64,000 nt of DNA from Escherichia coli (GTDB lineage: Bacteria; Pseudomonadota; Gammaproteobacteria; Enterobacterales; Enterobacteriaceae). The stretch is taken from NCBI RefSeq assembly GCF_036507355.1, contig NZ_AP027877.1; one strand, 5' to 3'. The notes beneath the pieces were generated by a model that was not told the DNA's origin, ran no database searches, and saw only the letters and a program-made list of their open reading frames with translations. Positions 13,924-42,468 of the stretch are shown here, one piece after another; position 1 is the stretch's first letter, and every line of letters begins with the position of its first letter. A program made the position numbers and the translations under genes.

Positions 13924-14004
13924 TGTCTCATGAGGTTTCACTGAATCTCAGAACAACGGTAAAACTCTATAAAATCCACGCAATTGCGTGGATTTTTCAT
14001 TTCA
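13924..14004. repeat. Left copy of 81-bp imperfect direct repeat bounding the island (putative attL)
   Basis: 70 of 81 positions match 61769-61849; the last 37 bp are identical and include the palindrome AAAATCCACGCAATTGCGTGGATTTT. Confidence 0.8.
13971..13998 (+). terminator. Putative ychF rho-independent terminator (inside the repeat)
   Basis: Perfect palindrome followed by a T5 run, 60 bp after the ychF stop. Confidence 0.6.
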
Positions 14005-18270: not shown

Positions 18271-18450
18271 TGGGAATCATATTCGGCGTCAGGGTCAATA
18301 TAAAGGCATTACTAGCATCGGGATGTACTAATCAACGGAGAGCAAGATCACATCCCTAACAGTATGACCAGATAAGCTATTCATAGTAAAAAAATATATC
18401 CACTAACCATCTAGAAGATAAGTCATGATTTTCACGGTAATGACTCCAAC

Positions 18451-18954
18451 TTATTGATAGTGTTTTATGTTCAGATAATGCCCGATGACTTTGTCATGCA
18501 GCTCCACCGATTTTGAGAACGACAGCGACTTCCGTCCCAGCCGTGCCAGGTGCTGCCTCAGATTCAGGTTATGCCGCTCAATTCGCTGCGTATATCGCTT
18601 GCTGATTACGTGCAGCTTTCCCTTCAGGCGGGATTCATACAGCGGCCAGCCATCCGTCATCCATATCACCACGTCAAAGGGTGACAGCAGGCTCATAAGA
18701 CGCCCCAGCGTCGCCATAGTGCGTTCACCGAATACGTGCGCAACAACCGTCTTCCGGAGCCTGTCATACGCGTAAAACAGCCAGCGCTGGCGCGATTTAG
18801 CCCCGACGTATCCCCACTGTTCGTCCATTTCCGCGCAGACGATGACGTCACTGCCCGGCTGTATGCGCGAGGTTACCGACTGCGGCCTGAGTTTTTTAAA
18901 TGGCGGAAAATCGTGTTGAGGCCAACGCCAATAATGCGTGCACTGGCGCGACAT
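18451..18954 (-). CDS. insB: IS1 InsB (expressed as InsAB' by frameshift)
   Basis: 167-aa ORF recognised as IS1 InsB. Confidence 0.93.
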
Positions 18955-19148
18955 CCGACGCCATTCATGGCCATATCAATGATTTTCTGGTGCGTACCGG
19001 GTTGAGAAGCGGTGTAAGTGAACTGCAGTTGCCATGTTTTACGGCAGTGAGAGCAGAGATAGCGCTGATGTCCGGCAGTGCTTTTGCCGTTACGCACCAC
19101 CCCGTCAGTAGCTGAACAGGTGGGACAGCTGATAGAAACAGAAGCCAC
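18873..19148 (-). CDS. insA: IS1 InsA
   Basis: 91-aa [43 protein letters not shown]... Confidence 0.93.
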
Positions 19149-19504
19149 TGGAGCACCTCAAAAACACCATCATACACTAAATCAGTAAGTTGGCAGCATC
19201 ACCTAAGTCTTGAGCCATTATTTCTATAAAATACATGTTAAATCATATTAGAATAGTTTATACGATAATTCGCTTGAAGAAGAAAAACACTATTCTAATT
19301 CAAACATTTTATATTATCAAGAACCATGGTAATTACAGTTAATTTACAGTATCAGTGATGTGGTTTCCAAAAAAGTATGCCCAAACATTTAAATATATGC
19401 CTTCGATAAATGAACTTTAACTCATCAGAATGACTACCCATCAATACTATTGAGTATATGAAGACAATTCACAGTCCCATCTGGCGAATTTTTCAGATGG
19501 CGAG

Positions 19505-22500
19505 TTAAATATCTTCTGGTGATTCCCCCAGATACATCTTACGGTAATGATACACTTCAAAGAATTTCCCCTTGTCTTTGTAACTACTGATAAAGTAGCA
19601 ATGTGTTAAATACTTTAGCAGGATCTCATTACCTTCAGTTTTGTGAACTTTTGCTCGTTTGGTTTTATCCGCAATCAAATTATATTCTTCCGACACGAAG
19701 GCCATAAGCGCACGATTGATGTATTCAAAAGGCAGTTCTTCACACTCTAAAAGATGATTCAAAAACACAAGTCGAGTGTCATCTTCCGAAACATTAAGAA
19801 GGAGTGCTATACTGACTTTACTATTTAGGCTTATATGGTCGAAGAAACTATTGGTATAGTGCGGCCAGAGAACATTGATGATTGAAACTTTAGTCGTCAA
19901 CTCTATATCGTCATCATTGAGCACAAGCTCAATAAGTTCATTATCGAAATCTTCGTCATCTTGCAGATAAAACTCAATATTATTTTCAAAAACAGCAAGG
20001 TTGTTTCTAATCATAAGCGACAGACACTCATTGAGGCCCTTGCGACGTTGTCCCTCATAAATGCTGAGTACGTCTTCATAGAGCGCTTCTGACAGCAAAA
20101 CTCTGTTGCTCTCACAAAGTGCTTTAAATTTTGTCAGTGGCAGGTCACTGATTACCTTGTCGATACTTACAGGCAGCACGCTGATCAACTGTGCATATAA
20201 CGCGTCTGGCTTATCCGCTGCTGAAATGATGTGATTCACAACATTATCAATAGACTCCTCAGGAACACTGACCTTATGGCCTGAAAGCACCTCTGGATGG
20301 TGAGCAAAAAACGCCCACAATATCTCATCGTCGACATCGGTATACATGTAGTTAAATATGTTATCCCAGTTGGCAGCGACACGCCCATGTTTAAACAAGA
20401 GGTCATAAACAGTGAATGACGCACCCTCAACTACCGATAGCCTGATATTTTCAACTGTCGACAACTGCTGAACTTCAAAATCCATGTTTTCAATTATAAT
20501 TTCTTTGGAACGCTCAGTAGCGTCTGAATTAATTAGTGAAATAACGGATCCAACGCTTTCCTCAGAATGAATGAAATATTCCACAATAAACATCTCAAGG
20601 TTTGTATTTACAGCCTCAATTAAGCATGGGACTTTTTCACTCATAATTAAGGTATATGGATTGCGCGATAGTTCCTCAACATTCTTTCTGTTATTAGAGT
20701 ACGCATTAAACAGTGCAGTGAGGTTATTAATATTAAATACATACAGAAAATTCTCTGCGATAAACTTCACCAACGTACGTTCACTTTCATCGTTAGCTTC
20801 ATTGACGCTATCGAATACAATATTGAGCTCTTTTAATTTTATGCTGAATGACGCAATCTCATCGGGTCGTATGTATGTAAACAACGTAGTGTCTGTTTTT
20901 AATTCATGCAGATAATCCTGAACAGCACTTTGTCGGGTAATGTTTTCTATCAGACCAAAACGAAGTAATGACACAAATAACTGCTGATAAAAATCATCAT
21001 CAGAGTCAATGTCACGGTAAGTACTCATCGCCGCCATCAATTTACCCAATGTCTTTTCATCGCTTAAAATTAAATTAATTAAGTCATGATAGTCATCATT
21101 ACTAAATTCATAAAAATACGTCCGCATAGTGCGAATGATTAAGCCATGTGAGCAATAATTAAATAAATGAATAAAAACATCACGGGCAAAACCAGCTCGG
21201 CAGTTGATCAAAAAGCTAATTATATGCGGATGAAAAATCCCCTCGTAATATTTAAATGATAGCGACTCCATTTTATCTACAACATTGGAAACGTTATTCA
21301 GATGAATATCTTTTAACTCCTCAAAATTCACCTTAGCAGCGACCTTCTGGATATAAACATTATCTGATTTACTTAATGCACCTGCATGGAAGATAGAGCG
21401 ATATTGCATGTAATCCTGCTCAATATATCCATTTGACAACATGAAAAACAACAATTCCATATTGAAATTAATCGCTGAAGGCTTGGATGCATTTTTATTT
21501 CCCTTATCGTCAGTTGATGCAACATTAAGCAACCACTCACTCAATTTCGCTAAGGTTATTTTTTCACATAATTCATGAAGTGATAGGCCATTTCGTTGAT
21601 TAAGAACACGCTGTGTGTTTAAAATATTTTTAGATAATTGCTCAACGGTTTTTTGGTTCTTATCTAAAATAACTGGTGAGCGTTTGTTATATTCACGTAA
21701 ACTCTCAGCTCGCTTATTATGTGGAATTTGGAAGGTATCTTGATATTCATACCCGTTTCTTGAATATGTGATAGCTATTCCGGATGGAAGCTCTCTGTTC
21801 AGAAAATCACAAAACAATGATTCATCCCCACAAAGTTCAACAAAGCTCCAGCTACTCCCAACTTGCCCATACTTATTATGGCTTATATAAAACACTGTAT
21901 TCGATTCAATTTGTTCAGGAAGATAACGCCTTAGAATTTCAACCCTCAGATTTAAACTGGATGTTTGCAATTCCTTTTGTACTTTCACCAACTTTTCTTT
22001 CTGCTGAGAAATCTTTATTTCCAAATCTTTAAAATACACGTCATGTAGCGTTCTCTTAGAGTAAGCATTAACTATTCTGTATAAAAAACCATCCTGATTA
22101 TCAAGCAGAGTGAAATCTTTGGTACATAAATTTTTATACATTATCAAAGAAAATAACTTCACATCAGAAATCTCACCCGTAATTAATTTTTTAAAAATAT
22201 TAAATTCATTTATAACATTATTCATCACCCGCATATCAGTCAGGTAAAGGGATACTTTCTTGAAAAACTGCTCTTTATCTACCGAATTAAAGTTTATAAC
22301 TTTACTACTTAATATGTCATACGCATTCTCACTATCTACTGCAGGTATAATCGGCACAATAAAATCAAAAAATTTTGTTTGTGATTCAGCATCCTTTAAT
22401 AAATCCTCCCTGACTGCAAAAATAAATTTAATCGGTTTCTTTTCCAATAGTCTGGAATTGTTTATCACTTGATTTATTTCACGGAGCTTAATAAAAATAT

Positions 22501-23407
22501 GACCATTGTTTAAACGGTCTAAATCTTCAAATACGACAACTCTATACTTTGTTTTAAGGAAGAAGTAAACAATCTCATCAATATACAAATTTAGCAGAGA
22601 AGCTGTATTCTGTTTTTCCGCCGCAATTTCTGCCTTTAAGAGATTTACTTTATCAAGAGCAATTTTTCTGTCAAAAAATCCTATCCGATAAAAACGAGAC
22701 AGCAGATACCAACAAATGATAAATGATAGCGAACCGATACATCCCCAACGCCATACCGGATGTATCGCAATGAAATGACTCACCGCTGACGGTAATGAAA
22801 ACGTGTTGATAATTTTTTGAGGAAACAACAATGTAGTGACAACGATTGTCAGTATGAGAACAAAAAACAGCAAACAGGATGTTATTAGTATTTGCCCAAC
22901 ACTTCGGGTGTGAATGCGCTCTACCCGCGAATCTGGCAGCGTACCTTTATCCACTTTGTATAAAATCTGCTGTAATATGCTGTATTCAATGCTTTGTTCT
23001 TTTGATAAAGACTCGGAACTTTTTAGTGTCTCATCCGTTTCAAAGTTTGCCAGTGAGATAATCACGTGCTCATCCGCTGGTTTTAAACTTGTAAACCTGA
23101 GCCAATATTTCAGGCGGTGCCACAACCGCTTTCGCCCTTCAATTTTTTTAAGGTATGAGAGAATAACCGAGCTTTTACCCGCGCCATAGGACCCCGTGAT
23201 GGCGATGTTCTTCACATCATCCCGGCTGAGGGCATAATCCAACGCCTTAAAATAGGGTTGATATCCCTCTTTATCAGGATCGACAATCGGTGTTAGCGTT
23301 TGGAATTCCCTTTCCGTTCCTGAATTGTTTTCTGAAGTAACCTGAAGCCTTGCGACTGTTTTATGCAACCAGTCTGCGATCGTTTTCAACCCGAAAGACA
23401 GCGCCAT
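19505..23407 (-). CDS. KAP-family P-loop NTPase with large C-terminal extension (1300 aa)
   Basis: Walker A GSYGAGKSS, two hydrophobic helices inserted before Walker B VVVFEDLDRL (KAP hallmark), then about 900 aa with no recognisable motif; gene visibly AT-rich. Confidence 0.75.
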   Translation of the reverse strand: MALSFGLKTIADWLHKTVARLQVTSENNSGTEREFQTLTPIVDPDKEGYQPYFKALDYALSRDDVKNIAITGSYGAGKSSVILSYLKKIEGRKRLWHRLKYWLRFTSLKPADEHVIISLANFETDETLKSSESLSKEQSIEYSILQQILYKVDKGTLPDSRVERIHTRSVGQILITSCLLFFVLILTIVVTTLLFPQKIINTFSLPSAVSHFIAIHPVWRWGCIGSLSFIICWYLLSRFYRIGFFDRKIALDKVNLLKAEIAAEKQNTASLLNLYIDEIVYFFLKTKYRVVVFEDLDRLNNGHIFIKLREINQVINNSRLLEKKPIKFIFAVREDLLKDAESQTKFFDFIVPIIPAVDSENAYDILSSKVINFNSVDKEQFFKKVSLYLTDMRVMNNVINEFNIFKKLITGEISDVKLFSLIMYKNLCTKDFTLLDNQDGFLYRIVNAYSKRTLHDVYFKDLEIKISQQKEKLVKVQKELQTSSLNLRVEILRRYLPEQIESNTVFYISHNKYGQVGSSWSFVELCGDESLFCDFLNRELPSGIAITYSRNGYEYQDTFQIPHNKRAESLREYNKRSPVILDKNQKTVEQLSKNILNTQRVLNQRNGLSLHELCEKITLAKLSEWLLNVASTDDKGNKNASKPSAINFNMELLFFMLSNGYIEQDYMQYRSIFHAGALSKSDNVYIQKVAAKVNFEELKDIHLNNVSNVVDKMESLSFKYYEGIFHPHIISFLINCRAGFARDVFIHLFNYCSHGLIIRTMRTYFYEFSNDDYHDLINLILSDEKTLGKLMAAMSTYRDIDSDDDFYQQLFVSLLRFGLIENITRQSAVQDYLHELKTDTTLFTYIRPDEIASFSIKLKELNIVFDSVNEANDESERTLVKFIAENFLYVFNINNLTALFNAYSNNRKNVEELSRNPYTLIMSEKVPCLIEAVNTNLEMFIVEYFIHSEESVGSVISLINSDATERSKEIIIENMDFEVQQLSTVENIRLSVVEGASFTVYDLLFKHGRVAANWDNIFNYMYTDVDDEILWAFFAHHPEVLSGHKVSVPEESIDNVVNHIISAADKPDALYAQLISVLPVSIDKVISDLPLTKFKALCESNRVLLSEALYEDVLSIYEGQRRKGLNECLSLMIRNNLAVFENNIEFYLQDDEDFDNELIELVLNDDDIELTTKVSIINVLWPHYTNSFFDHISLNSKVSIALLLNVSEDDTRLVFLNHLLECEELPFEYINRALMAFVSEEYNLIADKTKRAKVHKTEGNEILLKYLTHCYFISSYKDKGKFFEVYHYRKMYLGESPEDI

Positions 23408-23668
23408 TGAGTGTCCTCACAATCACGAATATTAAATTCATAAATTGGAGACAATCCTAACATGAATCAAAAGAATCATCACACAATCATGTAGTTAAAA
23501 GAACAAGCTGGAACCTGATTTTTTATAGCATTTTCACGCAGCACAGTTTTTGCCCACGATAGTATCACCGGATTACGCTCACTCAAGATCAAGCTTATCG
23601 TACACCCGCACTACATATCAGCTACACCCATCACCGTAACCGAGTCCCATCGATATTCACTGACTAGT

Positions 23669-23713
23669 GTTGATACACCCATATAGATATATATACCCAT
23701 TGAGTGTATCAAC
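23669..23713. repeat. Inverted repeat (10-bp arms GTTGATACAC / GTGTATCAAC around an AT-rich TATATATA core) between the 290-aa gene and the KAP NTPase gene
   Basis: Perfect 10-bp arms separated by 25 bp; candidate operator or attenuator. Confidence 0.4.
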
Positions 23714-23765
23714 TGATGGATTACATGCGTCTAAACGCTTATAGACATCCTGTCTTATGGACAAA

Positions 23766-24638
23766 CTACTTACGGGTTCTCACCCCAGAGGTAAATGTCA
23801 GTCCAGTAAACCCCATCTCATCCTGCTTACATAACGCCCGTGCCAACAGAACAGGCGGCAGCCTGTGTTTGGGGGTACGGCGTTTTCCTGCCTCATCAGG
23901 ATAAGGTCTTACTTCCAGCCACATCCCCTTGAAGCAGTATGTTACCTGCTCGTCAAAATCCTTCAGCTTCTGGCTTTTCATCGGCCGACTGATTATCCCC
24001 GCTCTGGCCCGCATATTTTTATCCCTCTTCATCGCCTTTCTTAGCGTTTTGAGCGCCCCCGGCTCTCTCGGCATCAGTAGATGCAGGTGAGGCATCCAGC
24101 GCTGGATATCGGTGTGAAAATCCAACTCGTAGTCACCCACTATTTTGCCCGTAAATCCGGCTCTTTTTATCATCTTGTAGACCCGCTCCCGGAACTTCTT
24201 ATGATCCCAGCGGCTGATCTCGTCTTCTTTCAGCATGGCATCGTAATAAACCAGCGTAACCACTCTGTACGCGCCCTTAGAGGCCCTCAGTGGGAGCAAT
24301 TCAGTCAGCTTACGTAACCTGTGCAGGCGGAAACACTGTGGGCAGGCCGCGCTACCACATTGATGTTCTGGCATACAGCCCTCCAGTTTTCTCTTTAACC
24401 GAAACATCCGCCCTCGCCACTTTTTGTGTGCTTTTCTGACTTCTTTGCTCTCATCCTGATTATCATTCCTGTTCTGCCGCACAGCCTTTCGTATTGCTTT
24501 TATGCGGTACAGGCGTTCCTTCTCCATTTGCTCCCGGGTTTCAAAACCCGGAATGGTAAGAGCTAACTTTTCCAGTTGGCGCTCTTCTTCTGTCAGTGAT
24601 GCATACACTGCTCGCGCAATACGGTTTGTACCAAACAT
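23766..24638 (-). CDS. Hypothetical protein with Cys-rich zinc-finger-like motif, immediately downstream of alpA
   Basis: ORF 23766-24689; start placed at the ATG at 24638 adjacent to the alpA stop; contains CMPEHQCGSAACPQC; no confident family. Confidence 0.6.
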   Translation of the reverse strand: MFGTNRIARAVYASLTEEERQLEKLALTIPGFETREQMEKERLYRIKAIRKAVRQNRNDNQDESKEVRKAHKKWRGRMFRLKRKLEGCMPEHQCGSAACPQCFRLHRLRKLTELLPLRASKGAYRVVTLVYYDAMLKEDEISRWDHKKFRERVYKMIKRAGFTGKIVGDYELDFHTDIQRWMPHLHLLMPREPGALKTLRKAMKRDKNMRARAGIISRPMKSQKLKDFDEQVTYCFKGMWLEVRPYPDEAGKRRTPKHRLPPVLLARALCKQDEMGFTGLTFTSGVRTRK

Positions 24639-24639
24639 A

Positions 24640-24834
24640 TCAGCAACCTCCTCTGGTCCCACGGGAAGCAATCCACTCATTGACTTCACTTTCCAGCCAG
24701 GCCACCGCTCGTCCTCCTGTCAGGGATTTTTGGCGTGGGAAAGTCCCTTTTTCAATCATCCGGTACAGTGTGGCGCGGCTCACCGCACAGCGTTCCAGCA
24801 CAGCCTGAATTTTGACCAGTTTCATATCATTCAT
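24640..24834 (-). CDS. alpA: AlpA-family phage transcriptional regulator / excisionase-like protein
   Basis: 64-aa ORF with AlpA-type HTH (RCAVSRATLYRMIEKGTFP). Confidence 0.85.
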   Translation of the reverse strand: MNDMKLVKIQAVLERCAVSRATLYRMIEKGTFPRQKSLTGGRAVAWLESEVNEWIASRGTRGGC

Positions 24835-24941
24835 GTTTCAACGTTCCTCAACAAGGAAAGGGAACGCGCTATTAACAAGATCCAAAATCGGGGCTCTGTG
24901 AGGGGGGGGTTGGGACGTCTACTGGCTCGTTTCATACCTAT

Positions 24942-25547
24942 TTGTCGGGCCGACACTTTATGTCCATTGTCGGTCCGACAAAAGAGTCGTTAGAATGCTC
25001 AAAAATGAATGCATCAACGGGAGTTCGCGTGACAGGAAAAAGGCAGACCAGCCGCCAGAAACGGTCAGATAAAATGAGGAAAAATGCAGGATTGACTCAA
25101 GTGAAGGTTTACCTGGATGAAACCACTCTGCAGTTACTGGGGTTACTTCAGGAAAATATGTCAGAAGGTGATATGAAGGGTGATGAGGTCAATATGTTCC
25201 GTAGCATGGCTATAACGGCCAGTATCCACACCCTGGCAAAAGAACGACTGGGGGAACAAGAAGTATCGCATATGGTGATCAAGAACCTCGGTGCTGACTG
25301 CCCATCCGACGAAGCGACAGAAAACCCACGTAAGTTTCTTCTCCGGACGATGATTAACCACCTGTATGATAATGGCACACACAATCCGCACCGCCGTCGA
25401 TTGTCAGAAGTGGCTGGAATTATGAATGAAAGCAGTTTCAGGAACCCGAAGAACAAAAAAGGGGGATGGAGTGAAAATGATATCAGTCACTATGTCAGCA
25501 ATGACATAAAACTGGAAAATGATACCTCGGTTGATGTACCGGGCTAA
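24942..25547 (+). CDS. Hypothetical protein, divergent from alpA
   Basis: 201-aa ORF; true start uncertain; no recognisable motif. Confidence 0.45.
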   Translation: MSGRHFMSIVGPTKESLECSKMNASTGVRVTGKRQTSRQKRSDKMRKNAGLTQVKVYLDETTLQLLGLLQENMSEGDMKGDEVNMFRSMAITASIHTLAKERLGEQEVSHMVIKNLGADCPSDEATENPRKFLLRTMINHLYDNGTHNPHRRRLSEVAGIMNESSFRNPKNKKGGWSENDISHYVSNDIKLENDTSVDVPG

Positions 25548-25760: not shown

Positions 25761-26708
25761 TTACCAGCAACATAGCGCCCTGGAGGCTCTGTCTACAGCC
25801 TGCCTGCCCCTACAGTCATAGCGTGTGGTCGTGGATATATCCGCATGTCCTGCCAACTGGCGCACCACATTAATGTCCACTCCCTGCTCCAGCAGGCGGG
25901 TGATGAATGTCCGTCGCAGGTCGTGGGGGGTGAAGTAATCCACTTCTGCAGCTTCGCGTAACTGCGCCAACAGCCCTGTAAGACCCGTGGTGGTAAGCCG
26001 TTGTCGTCCTGGCTGCCCCGCACGACTGATGCGACTGAACAGCGGCCCGGCATGATACCCCCGGAGCTTCAGCCATCGCCGCAGTTGCATGCAGACTTTT
26101 CCGGAAAGGTGGATTTCCCGGATTTTGCGCCCCTTTCCCTGCCTGACAATCACGATCCCCGTGGCTACATCTATATCTCCCACGTCCAGGGCTACCAGTT
26201 CGGCGGCACGCAGACCTGCGCCACACAGAAGCAGCAAAATAGCCCGATTACGCTGGCAACGTACAGCGTCAGCCTTTCCGGCCGCCGCCAGCATGGCCCG
26301 AATTTCGGTCCTGTCCAACGCCCTGCCCAAGCGGGTGGCACTGCCAGTGACACGCCTGACTGAACGTATGCGCGTCAGTCTGTCAGCATCCAGAATCCCC
26401 ATACTGAAAGCCGCTCCGGCAACCGATTTCAGCGCCGACAGCGCCATGTTCACCGTGGCAACAGCATAGCCCTCATCCAGCAGCACCGAGCGTACCCGCA
26501 TCACGCTCGTGTAGTCCAACGTATGCCAGGGGTAGGTGTCGGGCTTCGCCCCCGGACGGAGGATACCGGCACATCGTCGGAGTAAGCTTTGCATCCCCCT
26601 GCGCCCGGCTGGCGTCAGGCTTGCCAGCCACAGCAATGCTGGGTTGATGGAGAGGGCATTTTGCGGGTGGACAGATGCCGCGCGTTTACCATTGCGGCTC
26701 GTGGTCAT
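25761..26708 (-). CDS. Tyrosine-type site-specific recombinase (XerC/XerD-like, about 315 aa)
   Basis: Catalytic-box residues (R in LRAAEL, HDLRRTF, ISTTTRY); visibly GC-rich relative to neighbours. Confidence 0.8.
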   Translation of the reverse strand: MTTSRNGKRAASVHPQNALSINPALLWLASLTPAGRRGMQSLLRRCAGILRPGAKPDTYPWHTLDYTSVMRVRSVLLDEGYAVATVNMALSALKSVAGAAFSMGILDADRLTRIRSVRRVTGSATRLGRALDRTEIRAMLAAAGKADAVRCQRNRAILLLLCGAGLRAAELVALDVGDIDVATGIVIVRQGKGRKIREIHLSGKVCMQLRRWLKLRGYHAGPLFSRISRAGQPGRQRLTTTGLTGLLAQLREAAEVDYFTPHDLRRTFITRLLEQGVDINVVRQLAGHADISTTTRYDCRGRQAVDRASRALCCW

Positions 26709-33379: not shown

Positions 33380-34146
33380 TCAGGCGGTGTGGTTGCTATC
33401 ATCTTGCATGAGATGGTTGGCTCGAAAGACCATCATCCCTTTTTGTCGAATAGCGTCAATCCACAAATCTGCCATCCACGAGTTGATGCCATAATGCTGG
33501 ATACAACATTCACGTATCAGCCGGTGTTCGTTCGCAATGGTAGTTGGCATCAAGGCGCTGTCATCCGTATTTAAACACACCGCCAGCGGCCCGCTGCGCA
33601 GGCCGTATTGGTTAAATTTTCCGCCGGTCGCCAACCATTCTGGATTAGGTGGATTCCAGCGAAAAAGCGGGTGTTCGTGATATTTCTCAAACCGACCAAT
33701 ATAAATATTTGAGGTTGGGCAGGCTTCAAACACTAAACCAAGACGGCTGTATTTTTCGGTTAGGTAATCCTGAATGGCTTCATACAGCTTAAGCTCCCCC
33801 TGAGAAATGAAATCCTCATCTTCAGACAGGGGCGACAAATAGCTATCAGTATCGTTAGGACAACAGTTAATGCAAATAATCCGGTTGGCGGGCTCCTTTT
33901 CATGCAAACCGCTGTTGAGATAGCGTTGCCATAAACGATAAGCAGTGACATTTTTCACTGACGGCGTATGATCTTCTTGCAACGCATCCCAGTCAGGGGC
34001 CCATTCCAGCCTATTCGCGCTGACGGACTCCAAGTTAGCATAATCAGGCCAATTGCGGCGCAGCAGCCACGCCTGATAAAGTAAGTTAGGCGTATAGATA
34101 TCTTTAAATATCCGCTGCGACCAGTGATGAATTTTATCGCGCAATT
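33380..34146 (-). pseudogene. Adenosine/AMP-deaminase-like metal-dependent hydrolase, C-terminal fragment truncated by IS1
   Basis: Contains deaminase-like motif region HEHPLFRW ... LAVCLNTDDSALMPTTIANEH; frame stays open up to the IS1 terminus at 34147, no genuine start. Confidence 0.5.
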
Positions 34147-34201
34147 GGTGATGCTGCCAACTTACTGATTTAGTGTATGATGGTGTTTTTGAGGTGCTCC
34201 A

Positions 34202-35069: not shown

Positions 35070-38000
35070 CTATACCGTCCAGCTGTTCGACACCACTTCA
35101 GCCTGCTTCAGTATCAGTTCAACTGCATAAGGTGTTTTATCTGGCGGATACTTGTACTTACGCAGCGTCTGACGCACCAGAATACGTAACCGCGCACGCA
35201 CGCTTTCTCGCACCTGCCAGTCTACGGTTGTGGACTGGCGCAATTTTAACGTGACTTCGATAGCCAGTTTCTTAAGGACGTCATCACCCAGCTCCCGTAC
35301 CGCACTTTCGTTTTCTGCCAGCGCATCGTAGAACGCGATTTCGTCCGGGTTTAGCCCCAGCGCTTCATCACGCGCCATCGCTTCCTGAAACTCTTTTGCC
35401 ATCTGGATCAGTTCTTCAATCACCTGCGCAGTTTCAATGGCGCGGTTATTGTATTTGAGAAGCACGGCTTTCAGGCGATCTGAGTATTTCTTCTCCTGCA
35501 CCACGTTGTTTTTGGTGCGGGCATGAATGCCGTCGTTCAGCAGTTTCTCCAGCAACTCGACTGCCAGATTACGCTGCGGCAATTCGCGCACTTCTTCCAG
35601 AAACTCGTCTGACAACAATCCAATATTCGGCTTATCCAGACCCGCCAGCGCAAACACATCATCCACGCCCGTCGCAATAATGGCGTTATCGAGGATTTTA
35701 CCGAGTAGCGTATTTTTCTCTGACTGACTGAATTTTTTGTCGGTTGTCGTCAGCTTGATAATCGCCACTTTCACCGCCGACAAAAACGCGATCTCTTTTT
35801 GCAAGGGTTTAGCTTCATCTAACGTACTGCACAGCGACCAGGCTTTGTTCATCGCCAGCACGACATCGAAAAAGCGCTTCTTACCGTCATCAAGGCCCAG
35901 CACATAATCTGCGGCTTTGAGTAAAAACCGTTGGGGCACCTCTGCAAAACCGGTGTAATCAAACCCGGCGGCGGTTGGTGTTTTGGCAAACATTCCATGA
36001 ATCACATCCAGCTTTTCAAGCAGGATGGAGAACGCTTCATGAGCATCGACTGTCGTCTGTCCTTTACCTTTTGAATCGGTATAAGTTTTCAGCGCCTGTT
36101 TCAGTTCATTGGCGATACCGATGTAATCCACCACTAAACCGCCCGGTTTATCTTTGAAGACGCGGTTGACGCGCGCAATGGCCTGCATCAGATTATGCCC
36201 GCGCATCGGTTTGTCGATATACATGGTATGACAACATGGCGCATCAAACCCGGTAAGCCACATATCGCGCACAATCACCAGTTTCAACGGGTCGTTGAGA
36301 TCTTTAAAGCGCGCTTCAAGGCGTTTTTTGGTTTGCTTATTGTAGATGTGCGGCTGAAGGAATTTATTATCGGAGGCTGAGCCGGTCATGATGATTTTGA
36401 TTTCACCTTTCTCGACGTCATCACTGTGCCATTCCGGGCGTAGAGCCACCAGCGCATCATACAGCTTCACGCAGATCTCACGGCTCATGGCAACAATCAT
36501 TGCTTTGCCATTCATTGTGGCGTTACGTGCCTCAAAATGCTGAACCAGATCGGCGGCCACCTCATTGATACGAGGTTCAGAACCAACCAGTTTTTCCAGA
36601 CGGCTCCAGTCACTTTTGGTTTTCTCTTTCTGATCGGTCTCTTCATCTTCGACCAGCTCATCCACCTGATTAGACAGCGTTTCCAGCTCTTCGTGGTTGA
36701 GGTCGAGTTTTGCCAGGCGCGATTCATAGTAGATAGGCACGGTTGCGCCATCTTCCACCGCATCCTGTATATCGTAGATAGAGACGTAATCACCAAACAC
36801 CGCGCGGGTGTCTTTATCTTCGGAAGAAACCGGTGTTCCGGTAAAGCCCATAAACGACGCATTGGGTAACGCATCGCGCATATGTTTGGCGTAACCGTAT
36901 TTATAAGCGCCAGTCTCCCGGTTCAGCGTGGCGCTAAGACCATACTGGCTGCGGTGCGCTTCATCGGAAATGACGACGATATTGCTGCGCAGGTTTAGCG
37001 CCGGGTGAGTCTGTTCGCCATCAAGCGGGGCAAATTTTTGTACGGTGGTAAAAATAATCCCGCCTGATTCACGGACATTGAGCATCTCGCGGAGCTGGTC
37101 GCGATCGTTTGCCTGTAACGGTTCCTGCTTAAGCAAATCCTGTGCCTGGCAGAAGGTGGCATACAGTTGGCCGTCGAGATCGTTACGGTCGGTCACCACC
37201 ACGATGGTCGGGTTGTTCATTTCCGCTTGTTGTAGCAGTTTTCCGGCGTAACAACACATCGAGATACTCTTACCGGAACCCTGCGTATGCCACACCACAC
37301 CGGCTTTTTTACTGCCTGGCGTGATGTTGCTGCGCAGCGGCAAGTGTTTACCGGTAGAGGCCACAATCGTCGCCGTCACCGCTTCACGTACTGCGTGGAA
37401 TTGGTGGTAAGCGGCAATCTTTTTAATCAGTCGTTTGCCGTCGCTTTCAAACAGGATGAAGTAACGAATGTAGTCGAGCAGCAGTTCGCGGTTAAAGAAC
37501 CCTTTTACTACCGTTTCAAGCTGCCATTCAAACAGCGGTTTGTCGTCTTCATTAGACAGCGTTTTCCACGGCAAGAAGCGCTCTTCGTTCGCGGTGAGAG
37601 AGCCAATACGGGCGTTGTAGCCATCGCTGACCACCAGCGCTTCGTTGCAGATGAACAGATCGCTGAGTTCGTTTTTATAGGTCTGCAACTGATTAAATGC
37701 CGCCCAGATATCGGCATTAGCATCAATCGGGCTTTTCAGCTCAATCACTACTACTGGCAATCCGTTGATATAGCAGATAACGTCCGGGCGACGTACCTGC
37801 TTCGTTCCCTGGATGGCCACCTGATTCACCACCGTAAAGTGGTTATTATTTGGGTGGTTAAAATCCATCAGTAGCGCTTTGTCGTGGATAACTTTGTCAT
37901 CCTGCTTGTACTGCACCGGCACGCCGTCGAGCAGCAGGTGATGGAAGGCTTTGTTACTGACGACCAGATCCGGGCTTTGCGCATGGGCGATACGCAGTAT

Positions 38001-38204
38001 CACCTCATCCAGCACGGCAACCGGGAGATGTGGGTTAATCTTTTGCAACTGCTCCAGTAGCACCGGGCGCAAAAACACATCGTGGAACGACGCACGCAGC
38101 GGATTGTTGCCATCTGGCGCAATATCCGGCCCGTGCAATACTTCCCAGCCCAGTTCAGCAAACCATTGCAGGCTTTGCTGTTCTAAATCGTCTTCGCTCA
38201 GCAT
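35070..38204 (-). CDS. hsdR: Type I restriction enzyme R subunit (HsdR)
   Basis: 1044-aa ORF with helicase motifs (Walker [13 protein letters not shown] box [10 protein letters not shown]). Confidence 0.9.
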
Positions 38205-39391
38205 CAGGTTTCCTCTGTCTCGGTTTCTTCCATTTCTTCGGGCACGTTTGAAATCTCTTTGAGCGCCATATTCAGTGGGGCAATAAAGGGATCTAACGCT
38301 TTTTCAAATGCCGTCAGGTTTACCAGTAGCCAGTCGATCATTTCAGGCCAGTTGGCTTCATCAAGGCTGATGGCCGGGCTGGCATAGGAAATTCGACACG
38401 ATTTTTTACCCGGCAGAGGTTCCCACTTAAGCGCATGGCCAAACGCGTTTTCAATTGCCTCTTTGCGTTCATGTAGCCAGTTAAAAGCAAAGGTATTGCT
38501 CTCTGCGGAAGCTTTGGCAATCCACAGCTCAACCCGAATCTCTTTTTTACTGAAAATCAGGTTATACGACACCGCGCTAATACCAGAGCCCGCACTGATC
38601 CAGTGATCGGTAGAGGGGCTGATATTGTTATATAAGTGGCAGGAGCTGGCTTTGAGGCGCTCCAGCATCTTTGTCCAGAAAGCTTTACGCATTAATTGGA
38701 CTGGCTTTACTCCGCCGCTGACGGATTGTTCTTCCGCCTCTTTTTGCGCCATACCGATCATGTAAGATTCTGCTTCCGGTGTGGGGATAACCTGACGGAT
38801 ATCAACGAATACATCGTCGTTGAACTTATAGGGTTTAACCTTAAAGCACTGTACCCGCAGACCAAATTGCATGAGCCACAGGGCAGTGTTGGTCACCTCT
38901 TTGCGAAAGTTGGCTGCGACCATGATGATTCGCTGTGTACGGCTCTGGTTGATTAAGGCTTCATCCAGCGTTTCATATTCGAGGAATTCAGCAAGCACCT
39001 CTGCCGCCGGGCGATTTTCCTCTGGGTCGTATTTATCCAGATAAAGCTGGAAGATCTGCAGAATTTGCTCTTTACGCAGGTTGGCGCAATACCCGGCATA
39101 TTTGAGCGCTTGCCAGACGACGTCGCGACCTGAATCATCGAGCTTATTCTCGATGATCACCAGATTGCCTTTTTTATCGATAGCCAGCAGGTCAAGGCGC
39201 TCTTTGGTGTCGTCAAAACCGGCGAACTCTTTCTGTATAATCAGTAGTTCATCGTCATTATCGCGAGTTAACGCTTGGGGATTCTGCGCCAGCCATTCCT
39301 GCAGATTGCCACGTTCGGTAAAACCAAGACTACTGAAAGAGACTTCCTGTAGGGAGTGTAAGCTGTTAGTCGGCGTATCAACTTTATACAT
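38204..39391 (-). CDS. PD-(D/E)xK nuclease-like protein embedded between hsdS and hsdR
   Basis: N-terminal D...ExK-like motif ([18 protein letters not shown]); ATG at 39391 overlaps the hsdS stop, and its stop overlaps the hsdR start. Confidence 0.6.
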
Positions 39392-40769
39392 TTTCCACCT
39401 CACTGACTGCCTGTTCTGCTTCCTGCAGGGTAATTTCACCCGAGAGAAGTTTGGGGAGAAGGGTGTCGCGGAGTTGGGTTAGTGATTCAGTTTGTACACT
39501 GAGCGATTTAATCTCATTAAATAAATGTGTACATTTGGCATGAAATAACTCCAATACTTTAGCATCAGGCTGAGCGATTTTAATTCCTGAGAAAGTAGAC
39601 GTATTGACATTTAAAGTTGCACTACCTGCGCTACCTAAAATGTGAAGATGATCTTTCAATCCCAACATACAAAAATAAAGATAATAGAGTAAGGAACTCT
39701 TATGAGGTGTAACAGAATTTATTTGCTGATTGGTATGAGATGGTTCATTGGTGATAGAAACAACACCAATAGTAGCTATACAACTAACACAGATAGAATT
39801 TGCGGGTACAAGTTTTTTTAGTTGCGACTTTGAACCGGCTTCGCTTAAATATTCATTAGTTTTAAGCACAAAAAGTTGCCCATGCATATCTGGTATCTTT
39901 ATGAATGGAACATCACTACCGTAATACTCTGGTTCTTTTTTTGACGGAGTTTTGCCACAAGTAACCTTCCCCATCTCACTAATTGACGCCACCCCCCATC
40001 CTTTAGGAATCGCCCCTAACTCACTGTCCTGCATCGCTGCCGGAAACAGTTCTGCCGTGGCTTTTAACTCGGCATATTGCTCAGGGTGTTCACGCTCAAA
40101 AACCGCCAGCGCATCCGCATCTTTCCCAGAAATGGCGGTCATGGCGGCAAGTGTTGCGTCTGCCTGCGAACCGCCCGCATCCAGTACTGCCATTTTGGCT
40201 TTTACGGGGTCAAAATCAACAAACCAACTTTTGAACAGGGCTTGTGCCATTTGTTCGAGGGTTTGGTTGATGCGATTATTACTATCAATTTTTTTACTTA
40301 ACGTAAAAATTAGCTTTGTACATCTTTTTTGATATTTTAAAGAAGGAATCTTTATTTTGTAGCTCAGCATGGCCCCTTTATCACCTCGAGGCATTTTTGC
40401 GCCCTTGGATGTAAGATGGCTATAATTAATAAAATCATCACTGCTTAAAATCAAATGTAAATATTCACTTGTGAGTTTTTCATGTGTAGTCCTAAATACT
40501 AGCACATCAGGAGAAACACCTCCGTAAAATGTGGCAAACCATACTTTTTTAAAGTACGTTCGAATATTAGAAAATAAAGTATCACCTATTTCAAAAGAAT
40601 TAAATTTGTTGACATCAGGGATGCCTGATGAAATAGTTACACCCTGACGGTCAGGCAACATATTTTCCGTGGAAATATAATTAGTAACATCTATAATAGA
40701 TGCATCACATTTTTTTGTGACTATCTCTACAAAGTTACCTAACTCAGTTTCGATGAACTCAAAACTCAT
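39384..40769 (-). CDS. hsdS: Type I restriction-modification specificity subunit (HsdS)
   Basis: Two target-recognition-domain architecture, AT-rich; start at 40769 overlapping the hsdM 3' end. Confidence 0.88.
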   Translation of the reverse strand: MSFEFIETELGNFVEIVTKKCDASIIDVTNYISTENMLPDRQGVTISSGIPDVNKFNSFEIGDTLFSNIRTYFKKVWFATFYGGVSPDVLVFRTTHEKLTSEYLHLILSSDDFINYSHLTSKGAKMPRGDKGAMLSYKIKIPSLKYQKRCTKLIFTLSKKIDSNNRINQTLEQMAQALFKSWFVDFDPVKAKMAVLDAGGSQADATLAAMTAISGKDADALAVFEREHPEQYAELKATAELFPAAMQDSELGAIPKGWGVASISEMGKVTCGKTPSKKEPEYYGSDVPFIKIPDMHGQLFVLKTNEYLSEAGSKSQLKKLVPANSICVSCIATIGVVSITNEPSHTNQQINSVTPHKSSLLYYLYFCMLGLKDHLHILGSAGSATLNVNTSTFSGIKIAQPDAKVLELFHAKCTHLFNEIKSLSVQTESLTQLRDTLLPKLLSGEITLQEAEQAVSEVENV

Positions 40770-42468
40770 AACCCAGCCCCCCCAGATTCGCCTTAATCTG
40801 CGCTTCCAACTTCGCGCTCTCTTCAAGCTGATCTTTAAGCTGCGCCGTCAGGCGCGCCATCTTCTCGGCAAACGGTTCATCATCTTCAGCTTGCTCGGCG
40901 GCACCAACGTAGCGCCCAGGGGTCAGCACAAAGTCGTTTTTCTGGATATCCTCCAGCGTTGCTGAGAAGCAGAATCCGGCTTCGTCTTCGTAGTCTTTAT
41001 CCGTCTGCCAGGCGTGGAAGGTATCGGCAATTCTGGCGATATCTTCGCGGGTAAAGTCGCGCAACACGCGATCTTTCATATAACCAATCTGGCGCGCGTC
41101 GATAAACAGCACTTCACCTTTACGGTGCGCTTTGCCGTTGCCACCGGATTTATCTTTGGTCAGGAACCAGATACAGGCTGGGATTTGGGTGTTGGTAAAC
41201 AGTTGCCCTGGCAGCGCCACCATACATTCCACCAGATCCGCTTCAATCAGGTTGCGGCGGATCTCGCCTTCATTGTTAGTGTTGGAACTCATCGAACCGT
41301 TCGCCAGCAGCAGCGCCATCGAACCTTTTGGCGCGAGGTGGTGGATCATGTGCTGCATCCACGCAAAGTTGGCGTTGCCCTGCGGCGGTGTGCCGTATTT
41401 CCAGCGCACGTCGTTTTCCAGCTTCGCGTTCCACCACTCCTTCATGTTGAACGGCGGGTTTGCCATCACGAAGTCAGCGCGCAGATCCGGGTGCTGGTCG
41501 TCTAGCAGGGTGTCGGCGTTTTTGGCACCAAAGTTAAAGTCGATACCGCGGATCGCCATGTTCATCGCCGCCAGCTTCCAGGTGGTCGGATTCGACTCCT
41601 GGCCGTAAACGGAAATATTGCGCTTCTGCTCAGCGGCGTTGTAATTCTTTTCGCCCGCGTGCTCTTCAATGAAACGGTCGCTGGAAACGAAGAACCCGCC
41701 GGAACCCATTGCCGGGTCATACACCCGCCCGTTGTACGGTTGCAGCATTTCGACAATCAGGGTCACGATGCTTTTTGGCGTGTAGTACTGACCTCCCTGT
41801 TTACCTTCCGCCAGCGCGAATTGCCCCAGGAAATATTCGTAAACGTGGCCGAGAATATCTTTGCTCTTTAAGCTGAGTTTCTCGCCGTTATATTCCGGGT
41901 TGCTGAAGTTTGCGTCAGAGAAGGTATTAATCAGCCCGGTCAGCACCTCGTTACTCAGTTGATACTGGCTGATGCGATTCAGAATACCTTTCAGTTTCGG
42001 GTTGGTTTTTTCGATTTCATCCAGCGCGTTATCCACCAGCCAGGAGACAGAGCGCAGCGTCACATCCTTGCCGGTGGTTTCATCCACCCACAGCACGGTG
42101 CCGGTCGGCAACATGGCTTTGTTTTTCAGCGTGTCCCAGCGCGCGGCTTTTGGCACCCAGAAGATGTTCTTTTCGGTGTAGTAATCTTCAACTTCCAGCT
42201 CTTCCTGGATAGCCTGAGCGTATTCTTCGTCGGAACCGTAATCATCGCGCGACATGGCGTAGATGTTGTCGGGATTACCGACATCGCGGAACAGGGTCGT
42301 CAGCTCCTGCTGACGCGCCTCGAAGGCATCAGAAACATACTTCAGGAAGATTAGCCCCAGCACCACATGCTTGTAGTTGGCGGCATCCATATTGGCGCGC
42401 AGTTTGTCGGCGGCCTTCCAGAATTTGTTATCCAGCTCGTTCAGAAATAGCTGTTCAGCGTTGTTCAT
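40759..42468 (-). CDS. hsdM: Type I restriction-modification DNA methyltransferase (HsdM)
   Basis: N6-adenine methyltransferase motif NPPF (VMANPPFNMKEW); start at ATG 42468 with GAGGA ribosome-binding site. Confidence 0.92.
   Translation of the reverse strand: MNNAEQLFLNELDNKFWKAADKLRANMDAANYKHVVLGLIFLKYVSDAFEARQQELTTLFRDVGNPDNIYAMSRDDYGSDEEYAQAIQEELEVEDYYTEKNIFWVPKAARWDTLKNKAMLPTGTVLWVDETTGKDVTLRSVSWLVDNALDEIEKTNPKLKGILNRISQYQLSNEVLTGLINTFSDANFSNPEYNGEKLSLKSKDILGHVYEYFLGQFALAEGKQGGQYYTPKSIVTLIVEMLQPYNGRVYDPAMGSGGFFVSSDRFIEEHAGEKNYNAAEQKRNISVYGQESNPTTWKLAAMNMAIRGIDFNFGAKNADTLLDDQHPDLRADFVMANPPFNMKEWWNAKLENDVRWKYGTPPQGNANFAWMQHMIHHLAPKGSMALLLANGSMSSNTNNEGEIRRNLIEADLVECMVALPGQLFTNTQIPACIWFLTKDKSGGNGKAHRKGEVLFIDARQIGYMKDRVLRDFTREDIARIADTFHAWQTDKDYEDEAGFCFSATLEDIQKNDFVLTPGRYVGAAEQAEDDEPFAEKMARLTAQLKDQLEESAKLEAQIKANLGGLGYEF

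What the first reader, a model, noticed from the sequence alone, without database searches (positions are those of the whole stretch)
19505..24834. alpA-linked operon ending in a 1300-aa KAP-family P-loop NTPase
alpA (24640-24834), a 290-aa Cys-motif protein (23766-24638) and a very large KAP NTPase (19505-23407) are co-directional. The NTPase has Walker A GSYGAGKSS, two TM helices inserted before Walker B VVVFEDLDRL (the KAP signature), and about 900 aa of unassigned C-terminal sequence. The gene is AT-rich and ends at IS1 copy 1. KAP NTPases are sporadic in bacteria and some are implicated in phage defence; I do not recognise this as a characterised E. coli system.
Basis: partly seen in the sequence, partly recalled or inferred. 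Interest (0 to 1): 0.65.

Follow-up and report, generated by a model that had tools for sequence, protein, structure and literature searches.

The report
Known Tmn phage-defence gene in island
The 1300-residue gene is an intact copy of Tmn, an already characterised single-gene membrane ATPase that protects E. coli from phages. It sits as swappable cargo next to the excision and replication genes (alpA and a Rep-like gene) of a mobile island, so it is an ordinary finding rather than a new three-gene system.

Summary
The three co-directional ORFs, the Walker motifs, the two hydrophobic helices between them and the low GC are all real. The large ORF (19505-23407, minus strand) is Tmn. It matches the PADLOC Tmn model end to end (E=4e-222) and the Pfam YobI-ATPase domain (E=8e-97), against only 4.7e-5 for KAP_NTPase. 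It keeps all 12 residues whose mutation abolished defence in the studied Tmn-25. Its C-terminal 860 residues model as a coiled coil with a small beta domain, followed by a helical solenoid, as published for Tmn. It is only about 29% identical to the plasmid Tmn that was tested, and it lies on the chromosome in 23 of 5426 complete E. coli genomes.

The operon reading fails. alpA and the 290-residue gene form a conserved pair in the backbone of an island beside ychF. In other genera that same pair is followed by a type I restriction system, Lamassu-like genes or GmrSD instead of Tmn. Close Tmn relatives elsewhere never have this pair as neighbours.

The 290-residue protein looks like a rolling-circle Rep. 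A conserved hairpin-and-repeat block follows it and marks the junction between backbone and cargo.

Verdict: already known, low interest.

The parts
19505..23407 (-). [quoted passage not shown]
   Evidence: PADLOC PDLC02220 Tmn, E=4e-222, residues 13-1275 against profile positions 7-1250 of 1273. The C-terminus matches the full-length Pectobacterium homologue. dN/dS is 0.05-0.33.
22079..23254 (-). [quoted passage not shown] It contains Walker A (residues 72-79, nt 23171-23194), TM1 (173-191, nt 22835-22891), TM2 (about 218-239, nt 22691-22756) and Walker B (290-298, nt 22514-22540).
   Evidence: Pfam PF20693, E=8.2e-97, model positions 1-363 of 363. Motifs and hydropathy.
19508..22072 (-). C-terminal arms (residues about 446-1300): a coiled coil with a small beta domain (proximal arm), then a run of about 35 short helices (distal solenoid arm). 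Inferred to be the phage-trigger sensor.
   Evidence: No Pfam hit. The AlphaFold2 model has mean pLDDT 86.8 with that secondary structure, and it matches the architecture described for Tmn in PMC13001434.
23408..23650 (-). 5' region specific to the Tmn cargo. The proximal 85-120 nt travel with tmn in unrelated loci, so this is the likely own promoter and ribosome-binding site (GAGG lies 9 nt before the ATG).
   Evidence: Homology to the Providencia and Enterobacter ludwigii tmn loci starts at 23491 and 23526. Backbone homology with Enterobacter hormaechei ends at 23651. No strong sigma-70 consensus was found.
23655..23765 (-). Conserved non-coding block at the junction of backbone and cargo: direct repeats TGTCCATAAG and TGTCTATAAG, plus a 13-nt inverted repeat around an AT-rich loop. 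Candidate origin, nick site or recombination site.
   Evidence: Near-invariant across E. coli, Enterobacter and Aeromonas. Inverted-repeat arms lie at 23669-23681 and 23701-23713. The single-stranded DNA hairpin folds with z=-3.5. Present only once in the window.
23766..24638 (-). 290-aa protein of the island backbone, probably an HUH-type replication initiator with a four-cysteine cluster. Not a partner of Tmn.
   Evidence: Invariant residues include C88/C94/C99/C102, T128 with Y132 (L129 nearly invariant), H184/H186 and Y234 (K237 nearly invariant). The model has pLDDT 85.7. AFDB50 structural neighbours are named 'Replication protein'. Weak Pfam Rep_1 and REP_ORF2-G2P hits occur in a few members. 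It sits upstream of different cargo in other genera.
24640..24834 (-). alpA: AlpA-family excisionase and transcriptional regulator, 1 nt upstream of the 290-aa gene. Part of the island backbone.
   Evidence: Pfam Phage_AlpA, E=3.4e-16. PHROG excisionase family, E=6.5e-14. The same 1-nt spacing is seen in all homologous loci.
18436..19203 (-). IS1 copy 1, 301 nt downstream of the tmn stop codon. In this strain it occupies the place of the DarTG genes found in IS1-free relatives.
   Evidence: Terminal repeat at 19181-19203. InsA and InsB ORFs. Comparison with strain 998. The 18436 end is calculated from the 768-bp length of IS1 and was not checked.

Best explanation
The 1300-residue ORF is an intact, chromosomal member of the Tmn family, a self-contained single-gene anti-phage system.

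**Shown here.** It has the YobI-type P-loop NTPase domain with two membrane helices inserted between Walker A and Walker B. It has the helical proximal and distal arms. It retains every residue known to be essential in the studied Tmn-25.

**Inferred by homology.** As in Tmn-25, it would assemble as a membrane-anchored oligomer. Its cytosolic arms would bind an early phage protein. ATP turnover would then rise, and the resulting Mg2+ export and ATP depletion would cause plasmolysis that stalls phage development. The trigger and phage range are probably different from those of Tmn-25, because the arms are only about 20% identical and the specificity position L867 is a tyrosine here.

**Genomic setting, shown here.** tmn is AT-rich cargo in the variable slot of a mobile island inserted beside ychF. 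That slot lies between a P4-type integrase and a conserved backbone module made of alpA, a Rep-like gene and a hairpin-and-repeat block. alpA and the 290-residue protein most likely serve excision and replication of the island, not defence.
For: - **Family match.** PADLOC Tmn E=4e-222 over the full length. Pfam YobI-ATPase E=8e-97 over the whole model.
- **Motifs.** Walker A at residue 72, Walker B at residue 290, and hydrophobic helices at 173-191 and about 218-239 between them.
- **Essential residues.** The plasmid protein WP_064055658.1 carries the expected residue at all 15 positions mutated in Tmn-25. Aligned to it, all 12 defence-essential positions are conserved here (G77, K78, Y281, D295, R298, N316, K345, F346, R393, F532, Y573, R576). 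The two dispensable positions and the specificity position differ.
- **Arms.** The C-terminal model (pLDDT 86.8) shows a coiled coil, a small beta domain and a long helical array, as published.
- **Selection.** dN/dS is 0.05-0.33.
- **Published mechanism.** PMC13001434.
- **Cargo status.** Homologues of the 290-aa gene always follow alpA. They precede a type I restriction system in Enterobacter, Lamassu-like genes in Aeromonas veronii, or GmrSD in A. caviae.
- **Tmn without the pair.** Tmn relatives in Pectobacterium, Providencia, E. ludwigii and Raoultella, and the plasmid Tmn genes, have no alpA or 290-aa neighbour.
- **Boundaries.** Backbone homology stops at 23651 and tmn carries its own conserved 5' region. 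GC drops at the same boundary.
- **Neighbours.** DarTG, RADAR, type I restriction and Zorya genes lie in this island in this or related strains.
Against: - No experiment was done on this variant. It is only 28.9% identical to the Tmn-25-like plasmid protein, and I could not establish whether the chromosomal variant tested in PMC13001434 is this one, because its supplements are not held.
- The mechanism comes from a preprint with an 11.6 Å map and a single trigger (T2 RIIB), so extending it to this branch is inference.
- NCBIfam has no model that matches the protein, and RefSeq names it only 'YobI family P-loop NTPase' or 'P-loop NTPase fold protein'.
- No clear sigma-70 promoter or terminator was found in the 358-nt gap, so read-through transcription from alpA cannot be excluded.
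Confidence: 0.88

Rival explanations
1. alpA, the 290-aa cysteine-motif protein and the NTPase form one dedicated three-gene defence operon, in which AlpA regulates and the 290-aa protein is a partner or effector of the NTPase.
For: The genes are co-directional. alpA and the 290-aa gene are 1 nt apart. No convincing terminator lies between the 290-aa gene and tmn. The arrangement is conserved at 99.7% or more in 22 E. coli genomes.
Against: - Those 22 genomes hold one near-identical island, so they are not independent observations.
- In 10 loci read from Enterobacter and Aeromonas the same pair precedes type I restriction, Lamassu-like or GmrSD cargo.
- Six Tmn loci read from four other genera at 49-83% identity, and two plasmid Tmn loci, lack the pair.
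- In strain B27 tmn persists between two IS1 copies without alpA or the 290-aa gene, and a Salmonella record has IS2 inserted in the gap.
- PMC13001434 found no conserved operon around Tmn.
Confidence: 0.04
2. The ORF is a KAP-family NTPase in the strict sense (a PifA or Kidins220 relative), with a role different from Tmn.
For: Weak Pfam KAP_NTPase hit (E=4.7e-5, model positions 2-198 of 293). Transmembrane helices inserted in the P-loop domain are the feature in the title of the paper that defined KAP (reference 16). Tmn was itself called a KAP NTPase in 2022-2023.
Against: The YobI-ATPase profile fits about 92 orders of magnitude better and over its whole length. The full-length PADLOC Tmn match includes the arms. 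All homologues listed carry PF20693.
Confidence: 0.04
3. The gene is a decaying or inactive remnant in an island riddled with insertion sequences.
For: IS1, IS21 and other IS fragments flank it. Neighbouring defence genes are truncated: an RdrB C-terminal fragment and a ZorA N-terminal fragment. A sister strain has tmn cut down to 94 codons by IS1.
Against: The reading frame is uninterrupted over 1300 codons and is colinear end to end with homologues. All essential residues are retained. dN/dS is well below 1 in every domain. About 300 nt of native 3' flank are preserved.
Confidence: 0.04

Closest known systems
Tmn-25 and the F-plasmid Tmn of E. coli (ECOR25 type; WP_064055658.1-like, named 'anti-phage transmembrane ATPase' in RefSeq), studied in PMC13001434, bioRxiv 10.1101/2022.08.21.504612 and PMC11846954
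   Same: Same family by full-length profile and same domain order: N-terminal segment, Walker A, two transmembrane helices, Walker B, proximal arm, distal solenoid. Similar length (1300 against 1273 aa). All 12 defence-essential residues are conserved. It is a single-gene system with no fixed neighbours.
   Different: Only 28.9% identity overall, and about 20% in the arms. This copy is chromosomal in an island beside ychF rather than in the leading region of F-type plasmids. It is rare: 23 of 5426 complete E. coli genomes, against about 440 plasmid places with the other type. The specificity residue differs (L867 is Y903 here). The trigger and phage range are unknown.
Bacillus subtilis YobI, the founder of Pfam PF20693 (YobI-like P-loop NTPase)
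   Same: Same Pfam domain, covering the whole model at E=8e-97, with helices inserted in the P-loop domain.
   Different: I did not compare the proteins directly. YobI's role is uncharacterised as far as I know (own knowledge).
KAP-family NTPases (Pfam PF07693), including F-plasmid PifA
   Same: Membrane-associated P-loop NTPases linked to defence. There is a weak partial profile match (E=4.7e-5).
   Different: The profile match is far weaker than to YobI. According to PMC13001434, PifA lacks transmembrane helices. In Raoultella a separate 710-aa KAP_NTPase gene sits next to a Tmn homologue, which shows that the two are distinct families.
Avs / STAND antiviral NTPases
   Same: One large polypeptide that combines an NTPase switch with a helical-repeat sensor binding a phage protein. 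This analogy is drawn in PMC13001434.
   Different: Different NTPase family, soluble rather than membrane-inserted, and with separate effector domains. No sequence match was seen here.
CP4-57-type integrative islands of E. coli (int, alpA, yfjJ/yagK Rep-like gene, RadC, CbtA/CbeA) and the defence hotspots of P4-like satellites (PMC9122126)
   Same: The backbone around tmn has a P4-type integrase, AlpA, a Rep-like gene, RadC, DUF2787, CbeA/CbtA and DUF905. It also has a slot that holds different defence systems in different hosts.
   Different: The 290-aa Rep-like protein matches no Pfam family above threshold, including YagK_YfjJ_C. The island also carries a second, XerC-like recombinase. No capsid-hijacking genes were seen. 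I have not shown excision, replication or helper-phage dependence.

Membership tests
Tmn defence system (PADLOC / DefenseFinder; PMC13001434) | Full-length match to the Tmn profile | tested here: met
   PDLC02220, E=4e-222, residues 13-1275 against profile positions 7-1250 of 1273.
Tmn defence system (PADLOC / DefenseFinder; PMC13001434) | [quoted passage not shown] | tested here: met
   PF20693, E=8.2e-97. GSYGAGKS at residue 72 and VVVFEDLDR at residue 290.
Tmn defence system (PADLOC / DefenseFinder; PMC13001434) | Two transmembrane helices inserted inside the P-loop domain, between Walker A and Walker B | tested here: met
   Hydropathy peaks at 173-191 (2.88) and about 218-239 (1.37), aligned with the two peaks of the plasmid Tmn proteins. 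Based on hydropathy only; no dedicated topology predictor was available.
Tmn defence system (PADLOC / DefenseFinder; PMC13001434) | Residues whose mutation abolished defence in Tmn-25 are conserved | tested here: met
   12 of 12 conserved. The two dispensable positions and the specificity position differ.
Tmn defence system (PADLOC / DefenseFinder; PMC13001434) | Helical C-terminal arms: a proximal coiled coil with an alpha/beta domain, then a distal alpha-solenoid | tested here: met
   AlphaFold2 model of residues 441-1300, pLDDT 86.8. Long helices and a four-strand beta unit are followed by about 35 short helices.
Tmn defence system (PADLOC / DefenseFinder; PMC13001434) | Acts alone, with no conserved operon partner | tested here: met
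   Neighbours differ in the 9 loci read from six genera and from plasmids.
Tmn defence system (PADLOC / DefenseFinder; PMC13001434) | Protects against phage; decameric membrane complex; trigger-stimulated ATP turnover, Mg2+ export and plasmolysis | not testable with these tools
   Requires wet-lab assays. Known only for Tmn-25 and a few other variants.
KAP-family P-loop NTPase (Pfam PF07693) | Significant match to the KAP_NTPase profile over most of its length | tested here: inconclusive
   E=4.7e-5, score 23.2, model positions 2-198 of 293 only. This is consistent with a distant relationship, not with membership.
AlpA family (Pfam PF05930), for the 64-aa gene | Full-length match to Phage_AlpA, in a small helix-turn-helix protein next to island integration genes | tested here: met
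   E=3.4e-16, model positions 1-51 of 51. PHROG excisionase family. Two integrase genes lie in the island.
HUH rolling-circle replication initiators (Rep_1 / G2P-like), for the 290-aa gene | HUH metal-binding motif and catalytic-tyrosine motif (YxxK) on a ferredoxin-like core, next to an origin with a hairpin | tested here: inconclusive
   - Invariant H184-L-H186 and Y234 (K237 nearly invariant).
- Only sub-threshold Pfam hits: Rep_1 at 3.9e-3 and REP_ORF2-G2P at 2.9e-2 in 2 and 1 of 19 members.
- AFDB50 neighbours are named 'Replication protein'.
- PDB fold matches are not significant and are ferredoxin-like folds at E of about 0.2-0.9.
- A conserved hairpin and repeats lie just downstream.

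The most novel reading that the evidence does not exclude
Two readings remain open.

1. This branch of Tmn comprises 18 clusters at 49% identity or more, then a gap to 32% or less. It may sense a different phage trigger, and possibly give a different output, from Tmn-25. Its proximal arm appears to be exchanged as a module between close relatives.
2. The backbone module of alpA, the Rep-like gene and the hairpin may define an undescribed family of replicating integrative elements, found in Enterobacteriaceae and Aeromonas. In that family, defence cargo would be swapped exactly at the hairpin loop.
Probability: 0.3. Interest if true: 0.45.

Novelty: already known. Interest (0 to 1): 0.2.

Why it matters
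The main value is correct annotation. RefSeq labels this gene only 'P-loop NTPase fold protein' or 'YobI family P-loop NTPase', yet it is a full-length Tmn defence gene in a dense defence island that also holds type I restriction genes and remnants of RADAR and Zorya.

Two points have modest further use. First, this is a diverged chromosomal Tmn branch and could be tested for a new phage trigger. Second, the alpA, Rep-like gene and hairpin module marks a slot where different defence systems are found in different genera, so it could serve as a landmark for finding further cargo.

Tried and rejected
- **Searches of the large ORF that found nothing.** NCBIfam gave no family, PHROGs none and PDB sequences none. 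Pfam on residues 601-1300 gave nothing even at E=10.
- **Which published clade this is.** I tried to learn which Tmn clade it belongs to and whether this exact variant was tested. The supplements of PMC13001434 are not held, and the Gao 2020 and Wu 2024 papers are not held. No ECOR strain name appears among the listed matching genomes.
- **False independent contexts.** Strains ET826 and B27 at first looked like independent contexts. They are IS1-mediated deletions of the same island, so I did not count them as co-occurrence evidence.
- **Island ends.** A search for att-type direct repeats found only an 82-nt repeat of the ychF terminator region at 61769-61849, which I did not resolve.
- **Promoter and terminator scan.** It gave no more sites than shuffled sequence and none usable in the 358-nt gap.
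- **Literature on the ychF hotspot.** The search found nothing specific.


Full report
**1. Observation**

The mechanical ORF for the middle gene extends to a GTG at 24689. RefSeq uses the 290-aa start, and the first methionine is invariant among 19 homologues.

- Walker A (GSYGAGKS) starts at residue 72 and Walker B (VVVFEDLDR) at residue 290.
- Between them lie two hydrophobic segments, at residues 173-191 and about 218-239.
- GC falls to 29-43% over the large gene, against about 46-61% in the alpA-side flank.

Two details need correcting:

- IS1 does not abut the gene. Its terminal repeat is at 19181-19203, 301 nt past the stop codon, and IS1-free strains align from 19201 onward.
- There is a 358-nt non-coding gap between the 290-aa gene and the large ORF.

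**2. Identity of the large ORF**

The profile evidence is unambiguous.

| Search | Result |
|---|---|
| PADLOC Tmn (PDLC02220) | E=4e-222, residues 13-1275 against profile 7-1250 of 1273 |
| Pfam YobI-ATPase (PF20693) | E=8e-97, whole model, residues 52-443 |
| Pfam KAP_NTPase | E=4.7e-5, partial |
| Pfam on the last 700 residues | nothing |
| NCBIfam, PHROGs, PDB sequences | nothing |

Tmn is a characterised defence system. PMC13001434 describes it as a YobI-family NTPase with two transmembrane helices inside the P-loop domain. According to that preprint it forms a membrane decamer and binds phage T2 RIIB through a solenoid-like arm. ATP turnover then rises, Mg2+ is exported, plasmolysis follows and phage development is arrested. 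ATP depletion also activates Gabija and Septu. Earlier work called it a KAP NTPase, and an anti-Tmn phage protein is known.

**3. How close it is to the studied proteins**

A plasmid protein, WP_064055658.1 ('anti-phage transmembrane ATPase'), carries the expected residue at all 15 positions mutated in Tmn-25, so it shares Tmn-25 numbering. The window protein is 28.9% identical to it.

All 12 positions whose mutation abolished defence are conserved: G77, K78, Y281, D295, R298, N316, K345, F346, R393, F532, Y573 and R576. The two dispensable positions and the T1-specificity position (L867, here Y903) differ.

An AlphaFold2 model of residues 441-1300 (47-sequence alignment, pLDDT 86.8) shows long coiled-coil helices and a small beta unit, followed by about 35 short helices. 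This matches the published proximal and distal arms. The '900 aa unassigned' region is therefore the Tmn sensor region.

Codon comparisons with four relatives give dN/dS of 0.05-0.33, so the gene is under purifying selection.

**4. Distribution**

- The exact protein cluster has 448 member sequences.
- There are 18 clusters at 49% identity or more (E. coli, Pectobacterium, Providencia, Salmonella, Enterobacter, Raoultella, Citrobacter). A gap then follows to 32% or less, where the plasmid-type Tmn proteins (27-30% by tblastn) fall.
- Among 5426 complete E. coli genomes, 23 carry the full gene at 99.8% nucleotide identity or more, always on the chromosome. About 440 plasmid places carry the distant type.
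- RefSeq names this variant only 'P-loop NTPase fold protein' or 'YobI family P-loop NTPase'.

**5. The operon claim**

I tested co-occurrence in both directions.

*From the 290-aa gene.* Its family is small: 27 clusters, from Enterobacteriaceae, Aeromonas and unnamed metagenome sequences. In every locus read it follows alpA by 1 nt inside a conserved backbone: an HTH gene, RadC, DUF2787, CbeA/CbtA, DUF905, a 315-aa XerC-like recombinase, a divergent gene of about 165 aa, then alpA and the 290-aa gene. What follows varies, and a P4-type integrase lies beyond the cargo in the Aeromonas and E. coli loci:

| Host | Cargo after the pair |
|---|---|
| Enterobacter hormaechei | HsdM, HsdS, DUF5655, HsdR (type I restriction) |
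| Aeromonas veronii | genes with MC3 and LmuB_C domains (Lamassu-like) |
| Aeromonas caviae | GmrSD plus a 304-aa gene |
| E. coli | Tmn, with DarTG in IS1-free strains |

*From Tmn.* Neighbours differ in each locus, and none has the alpA and 290-aa pair:

| Host | Identity to the window protein | Context |
|---|---|---|
| Pectobacterium | 83% | beside ychF and a broken integrase |
| Providencia | 66% | beside DUF932, an antirestriction gene and an nSTAND3-Mrr gene |
| Enterobacter ludwigii | 63% | among small unrelated genes |
| Raoultella | 49% | beside M78/DUF4411 and a KAP_NTPase gene |
| Plasmid copies | about 29% | among VapBC, Gabija-like and colicin genes |

DNA homology agrees with this. 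The backbone match to Enterobacter ends at 23651. The tmn loci of Providencia and E. ludwigii match from 23491 and 23526, so tmn brings 85-120 nt of its own upstream sequence.

The pair and Tmn are therefore backbone and cargo, not partners. This matches the published statement that Tmn has no conserved operon. Read-through transcription from alpA cannot be excluded, because no clear promoter or terminator was found in the gap.

**6. Setting**

The window matches E. coli ET881 at 100% over 19200-25000. It differs from ET881 beyond the second IS1.

The island lies after ychF and begins with a P4-type integrase. In strain 998 the same island carries DarTG next to tmn, and RADAR further on. In the window, IS1 replaces DarTG.

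The window also holds:

- an RdrB C-terminal fragment (33380-34144), cut by IS1 copy 2;
- a type I restriction system with a PDC-S11 gene (35070-42507);
- a ZorA N-terminal fragment (42801-43724).

**7. Side findings on the backbone**

The 290-aa protein has three groups of conserved residues:

- four invariant cysteines: C88, C94, C99 and C102;
- a VVTLxYY segment;
- invariant H184-L-H186, and Y234 with the nearly invariant K237, which resemble the HUH and YxxK motifs of rolling-circle Rep proteins.

Its model is confident (pLDDT 85.7). Its AFDB50 neighbours are named 'Replication protein'. Pfam support is below threshold and PDB fold matches are not significant.

Directly after its stop codon lies a block of about 110 nt (23655-23765) that is near-invariant from E. 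coli to Aeromonas. It holds two TGTCCATAAG-type repeats and a 13-nt inverted repeat around an AT-rich loop.

The Pectobacterium tmn locus, which lacks the backbone, begins its homology at 23690, inside that loop. The hairpin may therefore be a breakpoint for recombination or nicking. This is an inference and was not tested.

**8. Verdict**

It is wrong on novelty and on the operon.

The feature is a known kind of system, and standard tools already detect this member. What is not known is the phage range and trigger of this diverged branch.

Interest is low (0.2). The backbone and cargo junction is the only part that might repay further work.

Noticed in passing
window 23655-23765: A non-coding block just after the 290-aa gene is more conserved from E. 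coli to Aeromonas than the gene itself. It has two TGTCCATAAG-type direct repeats and a 13-nt inverted repeat around an AT-rich loop, and homology between islands ends right after it. It is a candidate origin, nick site or recombination site.
   Followed up: partly
window 23766-24638 (minus strand): The 290-aa 'Cys-motif' protein has invariant HUH-like (H184-L-H186) and YxxK-like (Y234, with K237 nearly invariant) motifs plus four invariant cysteines. Its structural neighbours in AFDB are named 'Replication protein'. No curated family matches above threshold.
   Followed up: partly
L008-L012 (Enterobacter hormaechei), L013 (Aeromonas veronii), L014-L017 (A. caviae); cargo starts at about 9260-9500 in L008-L015 and at the equivalent point downstream of the 290-aa gene in L016 and L017: The same backbone (XerC-like recombinase, alpA, 290-aa gene) carries a type I restriction system, Lamassu-like genes or GmrSD in the slot that holds Tmn in E. 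coli. It is a cross-genus defence-cargo slot, and ychF lies nearby in the A. caviae loci L014, L015 and L017.
   Followed up: partly
L018 6726-6760, matching window 23690-23651: In Pectobacterium, tmn sits between ychF with a frameshifted P4-type integrase and core genes, with no backbone. Homology to E. coli begins inside the AT-rich loop of the conserved hairpin, as if the hairpin were a breakpoint.
   Followed up: partly
window 21368-22072 (Tmn residues 446-680): Against the Pectobacterium homologue, the NTPase domain is 95.7% identical and the distal arm 91.6%. The proximal arm is only 47% identical, with dS of 1.27 against 0.17-0.28 elsewhere. This suggests exchange of the proximal-arm module by recombination.
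   Followed up: partly
window 33380-34169: A 254-aa ORF matches the last 248 residues of the RADAR deaminase RdrB (E=1e-142). It ends 2 nt before the terminal repeat of a second IS1 copy (34147-34169), so RADAR has been truncated here. Strain 998 has intact rdrAB at this position.
   Followed up: partly
window 35070-43724: A type I restriction-modification system (HsdR 1044 aa, a PDC-S11-like 411-aa gene, HsdS 480 aa, HsdM 582 aa) is followed by a 307-aa ORF that matches only the first 295 of 727 positions of ZorA, so it is probably a Zorya fragment.
   Followed up: no
window 18436-19203, compared with L002 11225-14983: IS1-free relatives carry a 3'-5' exonuclease/helicase-like gene plus DarT and DarG between the IS21 remnant and tmn. 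In the window that 3.8-kb segment is absent and IS1 sits in its place.
   Followed up: partly
window 13924-14004 and 61769-61849: The 82 nt just after ychF, including its 26-nt palindromic terminator, recur at 89% identity about 48 kb downstream. These could be att-type repeats bounding a composite island, or simply a repeated terminator element.
   Followed up: no
L007 (CP101356.1, Salmonella 'plasmid' pIndS104-CTX, 322 kb): This record contains ychF and the whole island with a 99.9% identical Tmn, and an IS2 is inserted in the gap between the 290-aa gene and tmn. A chromosomal segment seems to be present in, or mis-assigned to, a plasmid record.
   Followed up: no
window 25761-26708 (minus strand): A 315-aa tyrosine recombinase resembling XerC and integron integrases (E=1e-35 and 5e-22, both below family cut-offs) is conserved in the backbone, two genes upstream of alpA, in addition to the P4-type integrase. 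Its role, for example in cargo exchange or dimer resolution, is unknown.
   Followed up: no
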